A DNA stretch of 64,000 nucleotides from positions 32,412 to 96,411 of the forward strand of contig JAIBAP010000014.1 of NCBI GenBank assembly GCA_019695115.1, given 5' to 3'. The notes below the pieces were generated by a model. That model did not search any database and had not been told where the DNA came from. It saw only the letters and a program-made list of their open reading frames with translations. Below are positions 3,722 to 61,172 of the stretch, one piece after another (within the stretch, counting starts at the first letter, position 1; every line of letters starts with the position of its first letter). This stretch comes from Caldilineales bacterium. Its GTDB lineage: Bacteria; Chloroflexota; Anaerolineae; J102. The position numbers were made by a program, and so were the translations under genes.

Positions 3722-3850
3722 GTGAGGAGTGAAACGTAGAGCGTGAAACGTGAAACGTGAAGCGTGAGGCGTGAAGCGTGAGGCGTGAGGCGTGAAGCGT
3801 GAGGCGTGAGGCGTGAGGCGTGAGGCGTGAAGCGTGAAGCGTGAAACGTG
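3722..3850. repeat. Tandem heptanucleotide array of about 18 units (GTGAAAC / GTGAAGC / GTGAGGC)
   Basis: Direct period-7 repeats sit immediately downstream of the AI-2E transporter stop. They are translated as SRFTLHASRLTPHAS-type peptides in spurious ORFs. Confidence 0.9.
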
Positions 3851-4009
3851 GAAAGATATCACCACCGCTACCCGGCCCACATGCCCCGCATGGCCGCCAC
3901 TCAAGAAGGCGCATTACTTCCCTTTGGCACAAGCCGGATGTAGAATAGGGTGTTTGCGCGGTCAAACGCTGCCGCAAGCAAACCCCACTTCTTCAGCCAA
4001 GAGTCAACA

Positions 4010-4477
4010 ATGAAACTTTTCGAAGGGCTTCAGCAAGAACCGATCACCCATCTCGACCTGTCCTACTACTGCACCGCCCCCGCCGGCGCGCCCGTCAAGG
4101 ACGTCGTCGAGACCCTGCGCCAAAGCAAGCGCAACTGCTCGCTCATCCTCAAAGATGGCAAACTGATGGGCATCTTCACCGACCGCGACATCCTGCGCAA
4201 GGTTGTCGACCGGCCTGAGCTTTGGGAGCAAGCTATCGACCAGGTGATGACCAGGGAAGTGCTCACCATCGCCGAAAGCGCCACGGCCGCAGAAGCCATG
4301 GCGATCATGGATCGCTTTCACTTTCGCAATGTGCCGGTGGTGCGCGCCAACGGCGAGGTGGTGGGCAACTTCACCCACTACAGCATTGTCAAATTCCTGG
4401 CCGACACCTTCCCCACCGAAATCTACAACCGCGCTCCCGACCACACCCGCGTGGCCCGCCGGCAGCACGGCGGCTAA
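4010..4477 (+). CDS. CBS domain pair protein
   Basis: Two CBS-like modules are present (ILKDGKLMGIFTDRDILRKV and FRNVPVVRANGEVVGNFTHYSIVKF). The ATG at 4010 gives the start MKLFEGL. Confidence 0.75.
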   Translation: MKLFEGLQQEPITHLDLSYYCTAPAGAPVKDVVETLRQSKRNCSLILKDGKLMGIFTDRDILRKVVDRPELWEQAIDQVMTREVLTIAESATAAEAMAIMDRFHFRNVPVVRANGEVVGNFTHYSIVKFLADTFPTEIYNRAPDHTRVARRQHGG

Positions 4478-4495
4478 AGCCAGAGGCTCCCCCCC

Positions 4496-6358
4496 ATGAC
4501 GGAGAACAATCAACCCACCCAGATCAAAGAACTGGATCATGTCGTCATCCGCTTCGCCGGCGATTCTGGCGACGGCATGCAACTGACCGGCAGCCAGTTC
4601 ACCAACACCGCCGCCATCGTTGGCAACGACATCAGCACCCTGCCCGACTACCCTGCCGAAATCCGGGCGCCCGCCGGCACCCTGGCCGGGGTCAGCGGTT
4701 TTCAGGTGCACCTGTCGGACACCGACATCTACACCCCCGGCGACTCACCCGACGTGCTGATCGCCATGAACCCGGCGGCGCTCAAAGTCAGCCTGCCCGA
4801 TCTCGAGCCGGGCGCCAGCATCATCGTCAACACCGACGCTTTCAACACCGGCAACCTGGCCAAAGCGGGCTACACCCGGAATCCGCTCGAAGACGGCTCG
4901 CTGAAGAACTTCCAGGTCTACGAAGTGCCGATCACCACCCTCAACCGTAATGCCGTACAGGGTGTGGAGGGATTGAGCACCAAAGAAGTCGACCGCAGCC
5001 AGAACTTCTTCGCCCTGGGGCTGGTCTATTGGGCCTACGACCGGCCGCTGGACAACACCGCCGCCTGGGTGAGACAGCAATTCGGCAAACGGCCGGAGAT
5101 CGTTCAAGCCAACCTGCAGGCCTTGCAGGCGGGCTATTTCTATGGCGACACCACCGAAGCCTTCCAGGTGCGCTACCGCGTGCGCCCGGCCGCCCTGCCA
5201 TCGGGCACCTATCGCAAGATCAGCGGCAACGAGGCGACGGCAATCGGCCTGGTGACAGCCGCGGCCAAGGCGGGCAAGCCCCTGTTCTATGGCTCCTACC
5301 CCATCACTCCCGCCAGCGACATCCTCCATTTTCTGGCCGGCCTGCGTCATTTCGACGTCCTCACCTACCAGGCCGAGGATGAGATCGCGGCCATGGGCGC
5401 CACCATCGGCGCCGCCTTTGGCGGCGCCTTTGCCGTCACCGGCACCAGCGGCCCCGGCATCGCCCTCAAGAGCGAAGGCATCAACCTGGCTATCGTCCTG
5501 GAACTGCCCATGGTCATCGTCGATGTCCAACGCGGCGGCCCCAGCACCGGCCTGCCCACCAAAGTCGAACAGGCCGACCTCTTGCAAGTGATGTTCGGGC
5601 GCAACGGCGAAAGCCCCCTCCCCGTCCTGGCCCCGGCCACGCCTAGCGAATGCTTCGGCTTCGCCGTCGAGGCCTTCCGCCTGGCAGTGCGGGCCATGGT
5701 CCCGGTCATCCTGCTCACGGATGGTTATCTGGCCAACAGCGCCGAGCCGTGGTTGGTGCCCGACCCCGACGCCATCCCTCCCATCGTGGTCGAGCACCCA
5801 ACAGCCCCCAACGGCAACGGCAGATACCTGCCCTACAAGCGCGACCCGGTGAGCCTGGGCCGGCCCTGGGCCATCCCCGGCACACCCGGTCTCGAACACC
5901 GTGTAGGCGGGCTGGAGAAATCGCCCGATTTCGGCAACGTCTCCTATTCGCCCCAGGACCACCAGCGCATGATCAACGACCGCGCCGCCAAAGTTGCTCG
6001 CCTGGCCGATGTCATCCCCGAGCAGGATGTCTTCGGGCCGGAGGAGGGCAAACTGCTGGTGGTGGGATGGGGCAGTACCTACGGGGCCATCCACGCCGCC
6101 GTTGCCCAGGCGCAGGCCAGGGGCCAGTCGGTGGCGCACGCCCATGTGCGCTATCTCAACCCGTTCCCGCGCAACCTGGGCTACATCTTGCAGCGTTACG
6201 ACCGCATCCTGGTGCCCGAAATGAACATGGGCCAGCTCAGCCTGCTACTGCGCGGCCGTTTTGTCCGCGATGTCATCTCCCTGAACAAAGTTCAGGGCCG
6301 ACCTTTCAAAATCAGCGAGATCGCCAGCAAGATCGATGAACTGCTGGCAGGAGAATAA
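4496..6358 (+). CDS. korA: 2-oxoacid:ferredoxin oxidoreductase alpha subunit (KorA-like, 620 aa)
   Basis: The length and architecture fit a long OFOR alpha subunit (N-terminal gamma-like domain plus pyruvate-ferredoxin oxidoreductase core). It is immediately followed by a TPP-binding beta subunit. Substrate specificity (2-oxoglutarate versus another 2-oxoacid) cannot be decided from sequence alone. Confidence 0.85.
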
Positions 6359-6363
6359 ACCCC

Positions 6364-59530: not shown

Positions 59531-59566
59531 TCAGTCCACTACAGCAAACACAATTCTCACCCTACT

Positions 59567-59612
59567 ACGCAACACGCAACACGCAACACGCAACACGTAA
59601 TACGCAACACAA
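59567..59612. repeat. Heptamer array (CGCAACA x6)
   Basis: Direct repeats lie upstream of the AAGGAG Shine-Dalgarno of the next gene. Confidence 0.85.
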
Positions 59613-59635
59613 ACCGCGCAACAAGGAGCCTCTAG

Positions 59636-61105
59636 ATGTCCACCACAACCACTTTTGCACCCGGAGTCCAGCATTACATCGCCCTGGGCGAGACGATGAT
59701 GGCGCAGATGGCCGCCCAACGCCAGCGGATGAAAAAGATGCGCTTCGACACCATCGCCGTGCACGGACTGTATGGCATGGACGCCGCCCTCGCCAACCAG
59801 GGCAGCATCCTGGAGCCGGCCTATCTCAGCGCCGCCCAGCATTTCGAGAACAGCGACCACATGGAGGCCGCCCTGGCCTATCTGATGCCCGCCTGGGCCT
59901 ACACCCGCATCGCCAACCCCACCCTCGGCTATCTCGAAGAAACCCTGGCCCTGCTGGAAAGCTACGGCTGCGATGGCGCCGCCAGCGCCTGCGCCACGGG
60001 ATCGGGCATGGCCGCCATCTTCATGGCCACCAATCCCTTCCTGGCCCAGCCGGGGATGGTCGGAAACGGCCACGACGGTGGGCGGGCGAGCGCACCGGCA
60101 GAGAAGATCAACTTCGTCGCCAGCGCCAAATGCTATGGCGGCACCTTCATGCTCTTCAGCCAGCGCTACGCCGCCGATCGCGGGATCGAAGTGCGCTGGG
60201 TCAAAGACCCGCTCGACCTGGCCGAATGGCAGAGCAAGATCGACCGCCGCACCCGCTTCGTCTACGGCGAGATGCCCAGCAACCCCGGCCTGGCCCTGTT
60301 CGACATCGCCGCCCTGGCCGACATGGCCCATGCCCACGGCATCCCCCTCATCATCGATGCCACCGTCGCCACCCCCGCCCTCATGCGCCCCCTGGCCCAC
60401 GGCGCCGACATCGTCGTCCACTCGGTCAGCAAGAGCATGGCCAGCAGCGGCTTCGCCATTGCCGGCGTCCTCATTGCCCGCCACAACCTGCCCAGCCGGG
60501 TCGGCCCCGACGAAATGCGCCAGAATTTCGCCACCTATGTCAAATTACTGCCCTTCCGCGACCACGGCCCCGCCCTCAGCCCCTTCAACGCCCTAATGGC
60601 GATGAACGACCTGCGCACCCTCCGCAGCCGCATGGACATGCTCAGCCGCAACAGCATGACGGTCGCCCGCTTCCTGGCCCAACATCCGGCGGTCGAGGGC
60701 GTCTTCTACCCCGGGCTGGAAGACACGCCCGGCCACGATCTGGCCCGGCGCTATATGTGGCTGGCCGACGGCGAATGCGACTACGGCGCACCGGTGAATC
60801 GCTACGGCCACCTGATCGGCTTCACCGTCAAGGGCGGGGCCGAGGCGGCGCGGCGGGCGTTCGACCAGTTCCAGATCATCTGGCGGGCCACCGACCTGGG
60901 CCGGATCAAGAGCGTCGCCACCATCCCGGCCATCTCCACCCACCAACAGCAGGGCGACGCCGGCCGCGCCCTGGCCGCAGTGCCAGCCAACCTCATTCGC
61001 CTCAGCATCGGCGCCGAACACCCCGATGACATCATCGCCGACCTCGACCAGGCGCTGCAAAAGACCCCCGTGCGGGTCATGGCCCCCGCCTTCGCCTTGG
61101 CGTGA
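59636..61105 (+). CDS. Cys/Met-metabolism PLP-dependent enzyme family protein (O-acetylhomoserine sulfhydrylase / methionine gamma-lyase-like), unusually long at 489 aa
   Basis: Gamma-family similarity (…YTRIANPT..., GEMPSNPGLALFDIAALADMAHAHGIPLIIDATVATP, SVSKSMASSGFAIAGVL with the PLP lysine). An AAGGAG ribosome-binding site sits 8 nt upstream. Confidence 0.75.
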   Translation: MSTTTTFAPGVQHYIALGETMMAQMAAQRQRMKKMRFDTIAVHGLYGMDAALANQGSILEPAYLSAAQHFENSDHMEAALAYLMPAWAYTRIANPTLGYLEETLALLESYGCDGAASACATGSGMAAIFMATNPFLAQPGMVGNGHDGGRASAPAEKINFVASAKCYGGTFMLFSQRYAADRGIEVRWVKDPLDLAEWQSKIDRRTRFVYGEMPSNPGLALFDIAALADMAHAHGIPLIIDATVATPALMRPLAHGADIVVHSVSKSMASSGFAIAGVLIARHNLPSRVGPDEMRQNFATYVKLLPFRDHGPALSPFNALMAMNDLRTLRSRMDMLSRNSMTVARFLAQHPAVEGVFYPGLEDTPGHDLARRYMWLADGECDYGAPVNRYGHLIGFTVKGGAEAARRAFDQFQIIWRATDLGRIKSVATIPAISTHQQQGDAGRALAAVPANLIRLSIGAEHPDDIIADLDQALQKTPVRVMAPAFALA

Positions 61106-61107
61106 AG

Positions 61108-61172
61108 CGTGAAACGTGAAACGTGAAGCGTGAGAACTGATGGCGTTTTCTCACGTTTCACGTTTCACGTCC
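61108..61172. terminator. Near-perfect 22-bp inverted repeat built from heptamer arrays (CGTGAAACGTGAAGCGTGAGAA ... TTCTCACGTTTCACGTTTCACG); candidate bidirectional terminator
   Basis: The arms have one mismatch and the loop is CTGATGGCGTT. The hairpin sits exactly between the convergent PLP-enzyme gene (ending 61105) and nfeD (ending 61174). Confidence 0.6.

What the first reader, a model, noticed from the sequence alone, without database searches (positions are those of the whole stretch)
3722..61172. Genome-wide family of intergenic tandem heptanucleotide repeats (STRR-like) with locus-specific unit families
At least 20 intergenic sites carry arrays of 4 to about 18 direct 7-nt units (one site uses an 8-nt unit). 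The sites are 3722-3850, 9989-10100, 12517-12573, 12651-12730, 14805-14838, 19665-19790, 21196-21250, 22107-22138, 31831-31866, 31975-32030, 46176-46450, 51300-51330, 56252-56412, 57877-58052, 59567-59612 and 61108-61172.

The unit families recur at different loci:
- GTGAAAC/GTGAAGC/GTGAGGC and the inverse CACGTTT;
- GTGGTGC and GTTCCGT;
- GAGATTG/GTTATTG;
- GTTGATT/GTTGACT and the inverse AACAGTC;
- GTGGCAG/GTCGCAG;
- CGCAACA.

The arrays begin exactly at stop codons or exactly abut start codons, so they tile the non-coding space. Period 7 is never a multiple of 3, which keeps them out of reading frames. The related in-frame repeats inside two genes are 21-mers (21 = 3 x 7).

The arrays resemble the short tandemly repeated repetitive (STRR) heptamers known from heterocystous cyanobacteria. 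I am not aware of a description in a high-GC genome with this gene content. They also explain most of the odd SRFTLHASR / VASGKWQVAG peptides in the six-frame track.
Basis: partly seen in the sequence, partly recalled or inferred. Interest (0 to 1): 0.8.

Follow-up and report, generated by a model that had tools for sequence, protein, structure and literature searches.

The report
Intergenic heptanucleotide repeat arrays, STRR-like
About half of the longer gene spacers in this Chloroflexota (Caldilineales) chromosome segment hold fast-evolving arrays of 7-base repeats. This kind of bacterial microsatellite is already known from cyanobacteria, Xanthomonas and Chloroflexus; here it is unusually dense and is oriented consistently relative to the neighbouring genes.

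Summary
Tandem Repeats Finder and my own detector find about 24 repeat segments in 15 of the 32 spacers of at least 50 nt. Nearly all have period 7 (or 14, 21, 35). Shuffled sequence gives none, and no other period is enriched. The arrays make up 17-20% of intergenic DNA and account for all of its period-7 signal.

The organism is an uncultured Caldilineales bacterium (Chloroflexota).

The kind is not new. Heptanucleotide repeats are the commonest long simple-sequence repeats in prokaryotes, including high-GC genomes, and Chloroflexus aurantiacus already has described heptamer-derived satellites.

What I add:
- A strain about 98% identical differs by whole-unit gains, losses and reshuffling.
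- More distant relatives carry unrelated units, or a single proto-unit, in the same spacers.
- Arrays next to start codons are always G-poor in the mRNA sense and contain no ATG, GTG or Shine-Dalgarno-like motifs. Arrays just after stop codons are mostly G-rich (Fisher p=1.5e-4).
- Inverted array pairs fold into long hairpins.

Best reading: slippage-driven microsatellites, filtered by transcription and translation constraints, with possible side effects on the mRNA. The in-gene 21-mers are unrelated amino-acid heptads. Classification: new member of a known kind.

The parts
3721..3850 (+). CGTGARR array (CGTGAGG x8, CGTGAAG x5, CGTGAAA x3), 18.6 units. It starts 4 nt after the AI-2E transporter stop codon and is G-rich in the mRNA sense, with TGA in all three frames.
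   Evidence: The array is two units shorter in strain L213.
9994..10100 (+). GTTCCGG x4 plus GGTGCGT x9, 15 units in all. It lies 5 nt upstream of the HAD hydrolase start codon (minus-strand gene) and downstream of the canonical EF-P terminator. It is C-rich in the mRNA sense.
   Evidence: Strain L213 has the same length, but 20 of 107 bases differ because the units are reshuffled. The leader folds less well than 195 of 200 shuffles.
12517..12573 (+). GGTCGCA/GGTGGCA array, about 8 units, 10 nt after the aminotransferase stop codon. G-rich in the mRNA sense.
   Evidence: Strain L213 has about 13 units.
12651..12730 (+). GTTGATT/GTTGACT array, 11.4 units with a 14-nt higher-order unit, in a spacer between convergent genes.
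   Evidence: Strain L213 has 5 units. One of the exceptions to the orientation rule.
12730..12770 (+). TCTCCCCC-type 8-mer run that abuts the SDR gene stop codon. It is G-rich in that gene's sense and is the inverted partner of 13532-13589.
   Evidence: pairs I20 and I22 (31 nt, 97% complementary).
13532..13589 (+). GACGCAGGGAGGGGGA 8/16/24-mer run between the M20 peptidase stop codon and the SDR start codon. C-rich in the mRNA sense.
   Evidence: Strain L213 has a 16-nt deletion here.
14806..14835 (+). GGAGATT x4.3, 3 nt upstream of the M20 peptidase start codon (minus-strand gene). G-free in the mRNA sense.
   Evidence: Identical in strain L213.
19672..19756 (+). TGGAGATTGGTTAT x6.1 in the spacer between the two oxidoreductase subunit genes. 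G-free in the mRNA sense, 16 nt upstream of the beta-subunit start codon.
19761..19798 (+). AATCTCT x4-5, the inverted partner of 19672-19756. It overlaps the last codons and the stop codon of the alpha-subunit gene. Together the two arrays form a hairpin with arms of about 43 nt.
   Evidence: pairs I1-I8.: -45.9 kcal/mol, z = -7.5, 0 of 200 shuffles fold as well.
21196..21260 (+). Short inverted pair (CGTGATG x2.7, loop, GTTTCAC) inside a composite module of about 130 nt that is shared with 46330-46480.
   Evidence: one search repeats D17 and I10. The predicted fold is weak (z = -0.86).
22107..22138 (+). TTCGTCC/ATCGTCT x4, ending at the Shine-Dalgarno sequence of the 93-aa ORF.
31831..31861 (+). 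AACAGTC x4.4 (reverse complement of GTTGACT), 1 nt after the serine dehydratase beta-subunit stop codon.
   Evidence: pairs I9 and I21. An exception to the orientation rule.
31962..32028 (+). 8-mer TCCCTGTC/TACCTGTC x8.4, 23 nt upstream of the serine dehydratase alpha-subunit start codon. G-poor in the mRNA sense.
46175..46205 (+). GTTCCGT x3-4, 1 nt after the ketoacyl synthase stop codon.
46229..46323 (+). Inverted pair of 9-mer arrays (TCACGAATT, then ATTCGTGTT) that forms a hairpin.
   Evidence: -40.2 kcal/mol, z = -6.5.
46396..46450 (+). CACGTTT/CACGCAA x7.7, upstream of the ORF 46502-47290. G-poor in the mRNA sense.
51304..51326 (+). ACGGAAC x3.3 between the MarR stop codon and the ABC transporter start codon (both minus-strand genes). 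A weak array.
56258..56324 (+). CGTGTTT/CGTGTTC x9.6, 6 nt after the homoserine dehydrogenase stop codon.
   Evidence: Complementary to 58008-58052 (pairs I11-I14).
56335..56408 (+). CTCACGTTTCACTC array with a 35-nt higher-order unit, upstream of the tryptophanase-like gene. G-poor in the mRNA sense.
57877..57988 (+). GTGGCAG/GTCGCAG/GTGGCAA x16, starting at the base after the tryptophanase-like stop codon.
   Evidence: Identical in independent samples.
58008..58052 (+). CACGGAA/CACGAAA/CACGCAA x6, ending at the Shine-Dalgarno sequence of the aldehyde dehydrogenase gene (true start 58065).
59567..59610 (+). ACGCAAC x6.3, 25 nt upstream of the Cys/Met PLP-enzyme start codon.
   Evidence: The 90%-identity relative has a single ACGCAAC here. 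The leader is less structured than 198 of 200 shuffles.
61100..61133 (+). GCGTGAA x4.9. It contains the stop codon of the Cys/Met PLP-enzyme gene and is the 5' arm of the hairpin between the convergent genes.
   Evidence: pairs I12 and I19; (z = -6.0).
61151..61170 (+). TCACGTT x2.9, 3 nt from the NfeD stop codon (minus-strand gene). It is the 3' arm of the same hairpin.
   Evidence: z = -6.5 on the minus strand.

Best explanation
These are heptanucleotide microsatellite arrays of the long simple-sequence repeat (STRR-like) kind.

**How they arise.** Arrays arise in place from single proto-units. They grow, shrink and are homogenised by replication slippage, unequal recombination or gene conversion in a 7-nt register. 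Some are also copied between loci as parts of larger composite modules.

**Where they persist.** They persist only where they do no harm, and in the orientation that does no harm:
- They sit in untranslated spacers, because a period of 7 breaks reading frames.
- Upstream of a gene, the strand that becomes mRNA is the G-poor one, with no start codons and no Shine-Dalgarno-like motifs.
- Just downstream of a gene, the mRNA strand is the G-rich one, often carrying TGA stop codons.

**Consequences.** Because they are transcribed as leaders, trailers and spacers inside operons, they have effects on the RNA. Inverted pairs make long hairpins at gene 3' ends and between cistrons, much as REP elements and the cyanobacterial hupS-hupL STRR hairpin are thought to do. 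Arrays next to start codons make unusually unstructured leaders.

**Shown versus inferred.** Shown: in-place origin, whole-unit turnover, the orientation bias and the folding potential. Inferred: slippage as the molecular cause, transcription of the arrays, and any effect on expression.
For: **Excess restricted to period 7 and to non-coding DNA.**

**Higher-order units, as expected from duplication of blocks.** Units of 14, 21 and 35 nt occur.

**Fast turnover between close strains.** Strain L213 is about 98% identical overall.
- The 3721 array has 2 fewer units.
- The 12517 array has about 13 units against 8.
- The 12651 array has 5 units against 11.4.
- A 16-nt unit is deleted at 13556.
- The 9994 array has the same 15 units in total, but 20 of 107 bases differ.
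- In the main alignment block, 19% of all substitutions fall in arrays that make up 2.3% of the aligned length.

**In-place origin.**
- The 90%-identity relative L090 has one ACGCAAC where the window has six, and an unrelated ACTGACC x4 array in front of the same Shine-Dalgarno sequence.
- The 86% relative has no arrays and much shorter spacers.
- The 81-82% relatives carry GATTGGTN or AATTGAC arrays directly after the same stop codon.

**Orientation filter.**
- All 10 start-proximal arrays have C>G and contain no ATG, GTG or Shine-Dalgarno-like motifs in the mRNA sense. Their complements contain many.
- 11 of 14 stop-proximal arrays have G>C. Fisher p = 1.5e-4.
- The orientation flips with the direction of the local gene, so it is not an effect of the replication strand.
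- Partial replication in unrelated metagenome contigs: stop-adjacent arrays are G-rich in sense 15 times and C-rich 4 times (p = 0.019).

**RNA structure.**
- Hairpins formed by inverted pairs have z-scores of -6 to -7.5.
- Leader arrays fold worse than 195-198 of 200 shuffles.

**The kind is known.** PMC4679880 and PMC4692102 (both citing Mrazek 2007), PMC6749651 and PMC2670836.
Against: - The orientation bias and the exact length conservation of the 9994 array despite 19% divergence would also fit positive selection for a function.
- The arrays are identical in every sample of the main clone, so they are not hypermutable on short timescales.
- Shared unique flanks between loci show that slippage in place is not the only way arrays spread.
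- The start-proximal half of the orientation rule did not replicate in the metagenome set (4 against 5). That set was selected for one unit family, and start codons there were called crudely.
- The stop-proximal bias is partly built in for CGTGARR units, because they carry TGA in all three frames.
- There are no expression data, so transcription of the arrays is inferred from gene order, from the lack of promoter-like sites in the 56-60 kb spacers, and from the orientation bias itself.
Confidence: 0.6

Rival explanations
1. The arrays are selected cis-acting RNA modules, not tolerated by-products.
- G-poor arrays in front of start codons would serve as unstructured standby or enhancer leaders, or as platforms for a single-strand-binding protein that covers 7 nt per monomer (cold-shock-protein or S1-like).
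- G-rich arrays and inverted pairs after stop codons would serve as 3'-end protecting or terminating hairpins, and as devices that set the relative expression of genes within an operon.
For: - Strict orientation: 10 of 10 start-proximal arrays lack start codons and Shine-Dalgarno-like motifs in the mRNA sense.
- Arrays end exactly at the Shine-Dalgarno sequence at 58052, at 22138 and in relative L090.
- Three genes (HAD, SDR, M20) have an array running up to the start codon with no Shine-Dalgarno sequence.
- Leaders are less structured than shuffled versions.
- There is a hairpin inside an operon between two subunit genes, like the cyanobacterial hupS-hupL STRR hairpin that has been proposed to stabilise transcripts (PMC2670836).
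- The same spacer carries an array in several lineages although the unit sequence differs.
- The length of the 9994 array is conserved between strains while its sequence is not.
- Published hints of expression effects exist for Nostoc (bioRxiv 10.1101/2022.06.06.494920), and CspB binds one heptamer per monomer (discussed in PMC4679880).
Against: - Unit sequences are not conserved between relatives, and some relatives have no array at all with spacers of 39-72 nt. No specific sequence is therefore required.
- Copy number varies two-fold between 98%-identical strains.
- The hairpins lack the U-tract that the organism's canonical terminator has (the EF-P terminator).
- A filter against harmful orientations explains the bias without any positive function.
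Confidence: 0.25
2. The arrays are cargo or products of a family of small non-autonomous mobile elements (MITE- or REP-like). These would be spread by a trans-acting transposase or nuclease, so shared units at different loci would reflect transposition rather than local slippage.
For: - Composite modules share unique, non-repeat flanks:
  - 21150-21290 with 46330-46480
  - 3691-3737 with the reverse complement of 21238-21284
  - 21195-21257 with 61110-61172, 81% identical including the loop
  - 12563-12627 with the reverse complement of 31894-31958, next to GTTGAYT arrays in both places
- A 55-nt element at 12574-12628 is present in the window strain and cleanly absent in strain L213.
- Subirana and Messeguer suggested transposition for the Chloroflexus heptamer satellites (PMC6749651).
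- Nuclease-fold genes (Uma2, PDDEXK_10) lie in the window.
Against: - I saw no terminal inverted repeats or target-site duplications, and the window holds no transposase.
- Most arrays have no shared flanks.
- The single proto-unit in L090 and the whole-unit differences between strains point to local growth.
- The 55-nt element does not fold significantly.
- No link between the nuclease genes and the repeats was tested.
Confidence: 0.08
3. The arrays are contingency loci. Copy-number changes would switch or tune promoters, or the spacing in 5' UTRs, of particular genes, as simple-sequence repeats do in Haemophilus and Neisseria.
For: - Unit number differs between strains.
- Several arrays lie between a terminator and the next start codon, where a promoter or leader must be.
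Against: - Arrays are identical across all samples of the clone from several studies.
- They flank ordinary housekeeping and metabolic genes, not surface or restriction-modification genes.
- Half of them lie downstream of genes or inside operons.
- No promoter-like hexamers lie in or beside them in the 46-64 kb stretch.
Confidence: 0.05
4. The arrays are assembly or binning artefacts of short-read metagenomics.
For: Many public contigs stop inside the arrays, which shows that assemblers struggle with them.
Against: - The same arrays are recovered base for base by different assemblers and studies, including MEGAHIT contigs from ENA, JGI assemblies and Logan unitigs.
- A SPAdes assembly of a second strain carries them with unit-level differences.
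- All arrays are shorter than a read pair.
Confidence: 0.02

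Closest known systems
Cyanobacterial STRR sequences (short tandemly repeated repetitive heptamers; Mazel et al. 1990, from my own knowledge; described in PMC2670836 and PMC4692102)
   Same: - Tandem 7-nt units in many dispersed intergenic arrays, with several unit families per genome.
- Arrays occur between genes of one operon and can form hairpins (hupS-hupL there, the two oxidoreductase subunit genes here).
- The function is unresolved in both cases.
- The GTTGACT/AACAGTC arrays here are a rotation of the unit I recall as STRR3 (CAACAGT). I could not verify that unit in the library.
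   Different: - The host is a non-photosynthetic, high-GC Caldilineales bacterium (Chloroflexota), not a heterocystous cyanobacterium.
- The dominant units (CGTGNNN, GTGGCAG, GGAGATT) are not the canonical STRR units.
Heptamer-derived satellites of Chloroflexus aurantiacus, (GATAGRA)n (Subirana and Messeguer 2019, PMC6749651)
   Same: - Same phylum.
- Scattered intergenic arrays built from a heptamer, seen as 14-nt satellites.
- C. aurantiacus tops the paper's table of bacteria by satellite number.
- The weak 22107-22138 array reads CGATAGA/CGATGGA on its G-rich strand, which is close to GATAGRA.
   Different: - Chloroflexus has one dominant unit family. This window has at least six.
- The density here is far higher than in the 1.1 Mb of other Chloroflexota sequence that I scanned.
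GGGAATC repeats of Xanthomonas and GGGGAYT repeats of Nostoc (Rehm et al. 2015, PMC4692102); the long simple-sequence repeat class of Mrazek et al. 2007
   Same: - Heptamer arrays over-represented in intergenic DNA of a genome of about 65% GC.
- Inverted pairs between convergent genes.
- Length and sequence vary between close relatives while the position is kept.
- Slippage was proposed as the origin.
   Different: - Those units form G-quadruplexes. Most units here have no G-runs; only 12730-12770 and 13532-13589 do.
- I did not see, in the passages I read, an orientation rule tied to start or stop proximity for those repeats.
TAACTGA direct repeats of marine Beggiatoaceae, Microcystis and some Bacteroidetes (MacGregor 2015, PMC4679880)
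   Same: - Heptamer arrays directly upstream of start codons, in a fixed orientation relative to the downstream gene.
- A role in translation was proposed.
- The phylogenetic distribution is scattered.
   Different: - That case has a single, AT-rich unit with 2-6 copies.
- Here there are many units, up to 18 copies, and arrays also lie downstream of genes.
REP/BIME elements of enterobacteria (from my own knowledge)
   Same: A functional analogy only: abundant extragenic hairpin-forming repeats at gene 3' ends and inside operons, which can protect upstream mRNA.
   Different: REP elements are imperfect palindromes of about 35 nt mobilised by RAYT transposases. They are not tandem heptamers, and no RAYT gene was seen here.

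Membership tests
Prokaryotic heptanucleotide long simple-sequence repeats (LSSR, Mrazek 2007) | Head-to-tail repeats with a 7-nt unit, far more frequent than composition predicts | tested here: met
   12 strict arrays, against 0 in shuffles and 0 at other periods.
Prokaryotic heptanucleotide long simple-sequence repeats (LSSR, Mrazek 2007) | Confined to non-coding DNA, because the unit length is not a multiple of 3 | tested here: met
   22 of 23 period-7 TRF rows are intergenic. The lag-7 signal appears only in intergenic DNA.
Prokaryotic heptanucleotide long simple-sequence repeats (LSSR, Mrazek 2007) | Copy number changes by whole units between close relatives (slippage-type dynamics) | tested here: met
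   Strain L213 differs by 7-, 14- and 16-nt indels and by 5 against 11 and 13 against 8 units.
Cyanobacterial STRR | Dispersed tandem heptamers in intergenic regions, some of them forming hairpins | tested here: met
Cyanobacterial STRR | Canonical unit sequences (STRR1-3, as I recall them: CCCCAGT, TTGGTCA, CAACAGT) | tested here: inconclusive
   Only the GTTGACT/AACAGTC arrays (12651-12730 and 31831-31861) match a rotation of CAACAGT. The other units do not match. The canonical units are from memory, and my library search for them was uninformative.
Cyanobacterial STRR | Host is a (heterocystous) cyanobacterium | tested here: not met
   NCBI names the identical aldehyde dehydrogenase protein as 'Caldilineales bacterium'. 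The closest relatives are Chloroflexota MAGs.
Phase-variable contingency SSRs | Length heterogeneity within or between populations of one clone, and association with surface or restriction-modification genes | tested here: not met
   Arrays are identical in all samples of the clone. The flanking genes are metabolic or housekeeping.
REP/MITE-type mobile repeats | Defined element boundaries with terminal inverted repeats or target duplications, and a cognate transposase | tested here: inconclusive
   Shared flanks and one presence/absence polymorphism exist. I found no terminal inverted repeats, target duplications or transposase in 64 kb.
Known structured RNA families (Rfam) | A match at the gathering score to any of the 4227 covariance models | tested here: not met
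   no match in the whole window.
G-quadruplex heptamer repeats (the Xanthomonas/Nostoc type) | At least four runs of three or more G at short spacing | tested here: not met
   The units read lack GGG runs. The only exceptions are the 8-mer runs at 12730-12770 and 13532-13589.

The most novel reading that the evidence does not exclude
Heptamer arrays would be a general, rapidly evolvable way of building untranslated regions in Chloroflexota, and by extension in cyanobacteria.
- Orientation-specific G-free arrays would act as leaders that allow initiation without a Shine-Dalgarno sequence, or via ribosome standby, possibly through a protein that binds one heptamer per monomer.
- Complementary G-rich arrays after stop codons would pair with them, locally or across a whole gene, to set mRNA stability. 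Two candidate gene-spanning pairs are 12738-12768 with 13543-13573, and 56258-56324 with 58008-58052.

The orientation rule found here would then be the first sequence-level signature of that function.
Probability: 0.15. Interest if true: 0.7.

Novelty: new member of a known kind. Interest (0 to 1): 0.4.

Why it matters
- **Open question.** What tandem heptamers do in bacterial genomes has been unresolved since STRRs were described in 1990. This locus set is unusually dense, with arrays in about half of the longer spacers. It comes with a natural comparison series: a clone, a 98% strain, and relatives at 90, 86 and 81% identity.
- **Testable prediction.** The orientation rule is simple: no start codons or Shine-Dalgarno-like motifs in the mRNA sense upstream of genes, and the G-rich strand just after stop codons. 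It can be checked on any complete Chloroflexota or cyanobacterial genome and by reporter assays.
- **Practical consequences.** The arrays break short-read metagenome assemblies exactly at gene boundaries. They also create long spurious ORFs and repetitive pseudo-peptides that can mislead annotation.

Tried and rejected
- **In-gene 21-mers as relatives of the arrays: rejected.** They encode the amino-acid heptads RAEDERQ and RFEQVDQ. The GGGGTG hexamer run at 38582-38787 encodes a Thr/Pro linker.
- **Known RNA families: none.** There was no Rfam hit at gathering score. The single ARAGORN hit is a 94-nt 'tRNA-Asn' inside an ORF and is probably false.
- **Array hairpins as intrinsic terminators: not supported.** They lack a U-tract, while a canonical terminator exists after EF-P. 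The consensus scan found no excess of terminators.
- **Rest of the intergenic DNA as decayed arrays: rejected.** The lag-7 signal is at background once the arrays are masked.
- **Orientation set by the replication strand: rejected.** Orientation flips with the local gene within a single spacer.
- **The 55-nt dispersed element as a REP-like palindrome: not supported.** The z-scores are 0.07 and -1.84.
- **Literature.**
  - A search for the canonical STRR unit strings was uninformative.
  - 'Chloroflexi' together with 'heptanucleotide' gave nothing.
  - Adding 'heptamer' found the Chloroflexus satellite paper.
- **Failed look-up.** Looking up the 488-aa AI-2E ORF failed because the recorded gene starts at a different codon.
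- **Start-proximal orientation in the metagenome set: no bias.** The count was 4 against 5.

Full report

Yes. The copy numbers run from 2.7 to 18.6. One array has period 8 (31962-32028), and an inverted pair of 9-mer arrays lies at 46229-46323.

A stricter detector of my own finds 12 period-7 arrays. It finds none in 20 Markov-2 shuffles of the window, and none at any other period from 4 to 15 except 14 and one 8-mer.

I built a gene map from third-position GC, Pfam hits and the gene calls on identical public contigs. It gives 48 spacers totalling about 7.6 kb, 32 of them at least 50 nt long. Fifteen spacers carry arrays, and the arrays cover 17-20% of intergenic bases. Only one of the 23 period-7 TRF rows lies in coding sequence.

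The lag-7 match frequency is 0.345 in intergenic DNA and 0.262 in coding DNA. It falls to 0.264 once the arrays are masked. The arrays therefore account for all of the period-7 signal, and the rest of the spacer DNA is not decayed array. 'Tiling the non-coding space' is an overstatement.

**2. What organism and context?**

The window is an ordinary chromosome segment of about 65% GC. It encodes metabolic and housekeeping genes:
- two 2-oxoacid:ferredoxin oxidoreductases
- urocanase
- EF-P
- ABC exporters
- a tryptophanase-like lyase
- an aldehyde dehydrogenase, and others

NCBI names the identical aldehyde dehydrogenase 'MAG: Caldilineales bacterium'. The nearest species-level genomes by the tryptophanase-like gene are Chloroflexota MAGs at no more than 87% amino-acid identity.

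The same sequence, arrays included, occurs base for base in several ENA, JGI and Logan assemblies. The arrays are therefore not artefacts. Many of those contigs end inside an array, which shows that the arrays break short-read assemblies.

**3. Anatomy.**

Read on the G-rich strand, 12 of the 21 heptamer segments share a CGTG core:
- CGTGAAA, CGTGAAG and CGTGAGG
- CGTGGTG
- CGTGTTC, CGTGTTT and CGTGTTG
- CGTGATG

The remaining families are GTGGCAG/GTCGCAG, GGAGATT/GGTTATT, GTTGATT/GTTGACT and CGATAGA-like units. Higher-order units of 14, 21 and 35 nt are common.

Several arrays come as inverted pairs that fold into long hairpins:
- 19672-19802, between the alpha- and beta-subunit genes of one oxidoreductase: -45.9 kcal/mol, z = -7.5.
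- 61095-61175, which fills the spacer between two convergent genes: z = -6.0 on the plus strand and -6.5 on the minus strand.
- 46222-46335: z = -6.5.

These hairpins lack a U-tract. The EF-P gene, by contrast, has a textbook intrinsic terminator.

Some arrays sit inside larger modules that recur with unique flanks:
- 21150-21290 resembles 46330-46480.
- 3691-3737 resembles the reverse complement of 21238-21284.
- 21195-21257 resembles 61110-61172.
- 12563-12627 resembles the reverse complement of 31894-31958.

**4. Dynamics.**

One assembly (L213, from ERZ15185895) is a second strain, about 97-98% identical to the window over 16 kb. Its arrays differ by whole units:

| Array (window coordinates) | Window | Strain L213 |
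|---|---|---|
| 3721-3850 | 18.6 units | two units fewer |
| 12517-12573 | 8 units | about 13 units |
| 12651-12730 | 11.4 units | 5 units |
| around 13556 | 16-nt unit present | 16-nt unit deleted |
| 9994-10100 | 15 units | 15 units, but 20 of 107 bases differ through unit reshuffling |
| 14806-14835 | GGAGATT x4.3 | identical |

In the main alignment block, arrays make up 2.3% of the aligned length but hold 19% of the substitutions.

Comparisons with more distant relatives point the same way:
- **90% relative (L090).** It has a different array (ACTGACC x4) directly in front of the same aldehyde dehydrogenase Shine-Dalgarno sequence. It has a single ACGCAAC where the window has six.
- **86% relative (L091).** It has no arrays, and its spacers are 72 and 39 nt instead of 188 and 155 nt.
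- **81-82% relatives (L222, L224, L225).** They carry GATTGGTN or AATTGAC arrays immediately after the same stop codon.

Arrays are therefore born in place from proto-units, turn over quickly, and recur in the same spacers with unrelated sequence. Across 1.14 Mb from 80 other genomes, mostly Chloroflexota, period 7 is still the commonest period (17 arrays, against 0-5 for the others). The density there is about twelve-fold lower than in the window.

CGTGARR arrays occur in at least 120 metagenome stretches; the 80 held as loci range from 35 to 70% GC, and many carry the arrays as inverted pairs. This unit type is therefore widespread and not specific to this lineage.

**5. An orientation rule.**

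I classified each segment by its nearest gene end.
- All 10 start-proximal arrays have C>G in the mRNA sense. They contain no ATG or GTG and no GGAG, GAGG or AGGA motifs, although their complements contain many.
- 11 of 14 stop-proximal arrays have G>C in the sense of the gene they follow.
- Fisher's exact test gives p = 1.5e-4.

The orientation flips with the direction of the local gene inside single spacers, so it follows transcription and not the replication strand. Two leader arrays are predicted to be less structured than 195-198 of 200 shuffles. The two extra arrays just to the right of the window obey the rule.

In the independent metagenome set, stop-adjacent arrays are G-rich in sense 15 times and C-rich 4 times (p = 0.019). 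The relatives give 3 against 0. The start-proximal half of the rule was not reproduced there (4 against 5).

Caveats:
- Start codons are predictions.
- Neighbouring segments are not independent of each other.
- CGTGARR units carry TGA in all three frames, which favours stop adjacency by construction.

**6. Interpretation.**

The simplest account that covers all of this has three parts.
- The arrays are slippage- or conversion-driven heptanucleotide microsatellites.
- They are tolerated only in untranslated DNA.
- They are filtered so that leaders carry no spurious initiation signals.

They would still have RNA-level by-effects, namely hairpins at 3' ends and inside operons and unstructured leaders.

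A genuinely functional reading, as selected UTR modules or protein-binding platforms, is not excluded. It is favoured by the strictness of the orientation rule, by arrays that end exactly at Shine-Dalgarno sequences, by three starts without a Shine-Dalgarno sequence directly behind arrays, and by the length conservation of the 9994 array. It is weakened by the lack of any sequence conservation and by relatives that have no arrays.

Spread as mobile modules explains a minority of loci. Phase variation and assembly artefact are unlikely.

**7. Comparison with what is known.**

- Heptanucleotide repeats are reported as the most abundant long simple-sequence repeats in most prokaryotic genomes, including high-GC Burkholderia and Xanthomonas. 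Polymerase slippage was proposed as the cause (Mrazek 2007, as summarised in PMC4679880 and PMC4692102).
- Xanthomonas GGGAATC arrays also form inverted pairs between convergent genes and vary between close species (PMC4692102).
- Cyanobacterial STRRs form hairpins between hupS and hupL and are suspected of stabilising transcripts (PMC2670836).
- Nostoc heptamers near start codons modulate reporter expression (bioRxiv 10.1101/2022.06.06.494920).
- Chloroflexus aurantiacus has 22 scattered satellites derived from (GATAGRA)n (PMC6749651).

The finding is therefore a new, very dense, multi-family member of a known kind. In the papers I read, I did not see the orientation rule or the strain-level turnover series reported.

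**8. Side claims.**

- The 21-nt repeats inside two genes encode the amino-acid heptads RAEDERQ and RFEQVDQ and are unrelated to the arrays. One of them gains two units in strain L213.
- The odd periodic peptides in the six-frame translation are simply translated arrays.

Noticed in passing
window 12574-12628 and 31894-31958 (minus strand): A small dispersed element with a 28-nt core, GTCCCTTCGCTCCGTTCAGGGCAGGCTC, identical in both copies. The copy at 12574-12628 (55 nt) is cleanly absent from the 98%-identical strain L213, so it is an insertion/deletion polymorphism sitting between two heptamer arrays. It has no significant hairpin. Among all fetched loci it was found only in this organism.
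   Followed up: partly
window 12738-12768 and 13543-13573; also 56258-56324 and 58008-58052: Two genes are bracketed by complementary repeat runs. The SDR gene has a 31-nt pair that is 97% complementary. The tryptophanase-like gene has a 38-45 nt pair that is 87-92% complementary. These could pair 5' and 3' UTRs in RNA or act as substrates for inversion in DNA. They may also be chance consequences of reusing units on both strands.
   Followed up: no
window 59492-59531: A perfect 40-nt palindrome (AGGTGCGACGCACTTCGCGATCGCGAAGTGCGTCGCACCT; -37.4 kcal/mol, z = -7.7) lies 12 nt after the aldehyde dehydrogenase stop codon. It has no U-tract. Logan unitigs break inside it. The 90% relative has an unrelated GC-rich sequence at the same place.
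   Followed up: partly
window 21150-21290 and 46330-46480: Two spacers share a composite module of about 130 nt, with conserved non-repeat flanks (GCAAAGAAAYGRTRCTCGGTYCTGAA... and ...CCTTCAYAACMAATCAACCWAGC) around an inverted heptamer pair. The two copies are oriented differently relative to the flanking genes. There is no Rfam match.
   Followed up: partly
window 1495-1567 (Uma2-family gene, minus strand) and 21687-21796 (DUF3782/PDDEXK_10 gene, minus strand): In-frame 21-nt repeats encode the amino-acid heptads RAEDERQ x3.5 and RFEQVDQ x5, which look like coiled coils. The first gains two units (+42 nt) in strain L213. Both genes belong to nuclease-fold families which, as I recall, are expanded in cyanobacteria and Chloroflexi, the same lineages that are rich in heptamer repeats. 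No link was tested.
   Followed up: partly
window 38582-38787 (inside ORF 37948-39435, minus strand): A GGGGTG hexamer run (34 copies, 65% matches) encodes a Thr/Pro-rich linker ([13 protein letters not shown]...) in a 495-aa hypothetical protein with an N-terminal membrane anchor. Similar hexamer runs lie in coding sequence just to the left of the window (L216 1412-1630).
   Followed up: no
window 9985-9993, 13528-13531 and 14803-14805: Three genes (HAD hydrolase, SDR, M20 peptidase) appear to start 3-5 nt after a C-rich array with no Shine-Dalgarno sequence (for example ...GGAACACCACATG and ...TCTCCCCCATG). Pfam domain positions support the HAD and SDR starts. The M20 start is not verified.
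   Followed up: partly
window 52946-53039 (minus strand): ARAGORN calls a 94-nt tRNA-Asn inside a 406-aa ORF. There is no Rfam tRNA hit at gathering score, so it is probably a false positive.
   Followed up: no
L222 11417-11500, L225 11417-11495 and L224 11417-11455: Relatives at 81-82% aldehyde dehydrogenase identity carry arrays directly after the aldehyde dehydrogenase stop codon. Two have GATTGGTN 8-mer arrays and one has an AATTGAC/AATTGTC 7-mer array. GATTGGT is contained in the window's GGAGATTGGTTATT family, so at least one unit family is shared across genera.
   Followed up: partly
L092-L171 (metagenome contigs): CGTGARR-type arrays (GTGAAAC, GTGAGAC, GTGAGGC, GTGAAGC) occur in contigs of 35-70% GC from many environments. 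When they form inverted pairs, the G-rich arm comes first about 10 times to 1 by my reading of the array list. The taxa that carry them were not identified.
   Followed up: partly
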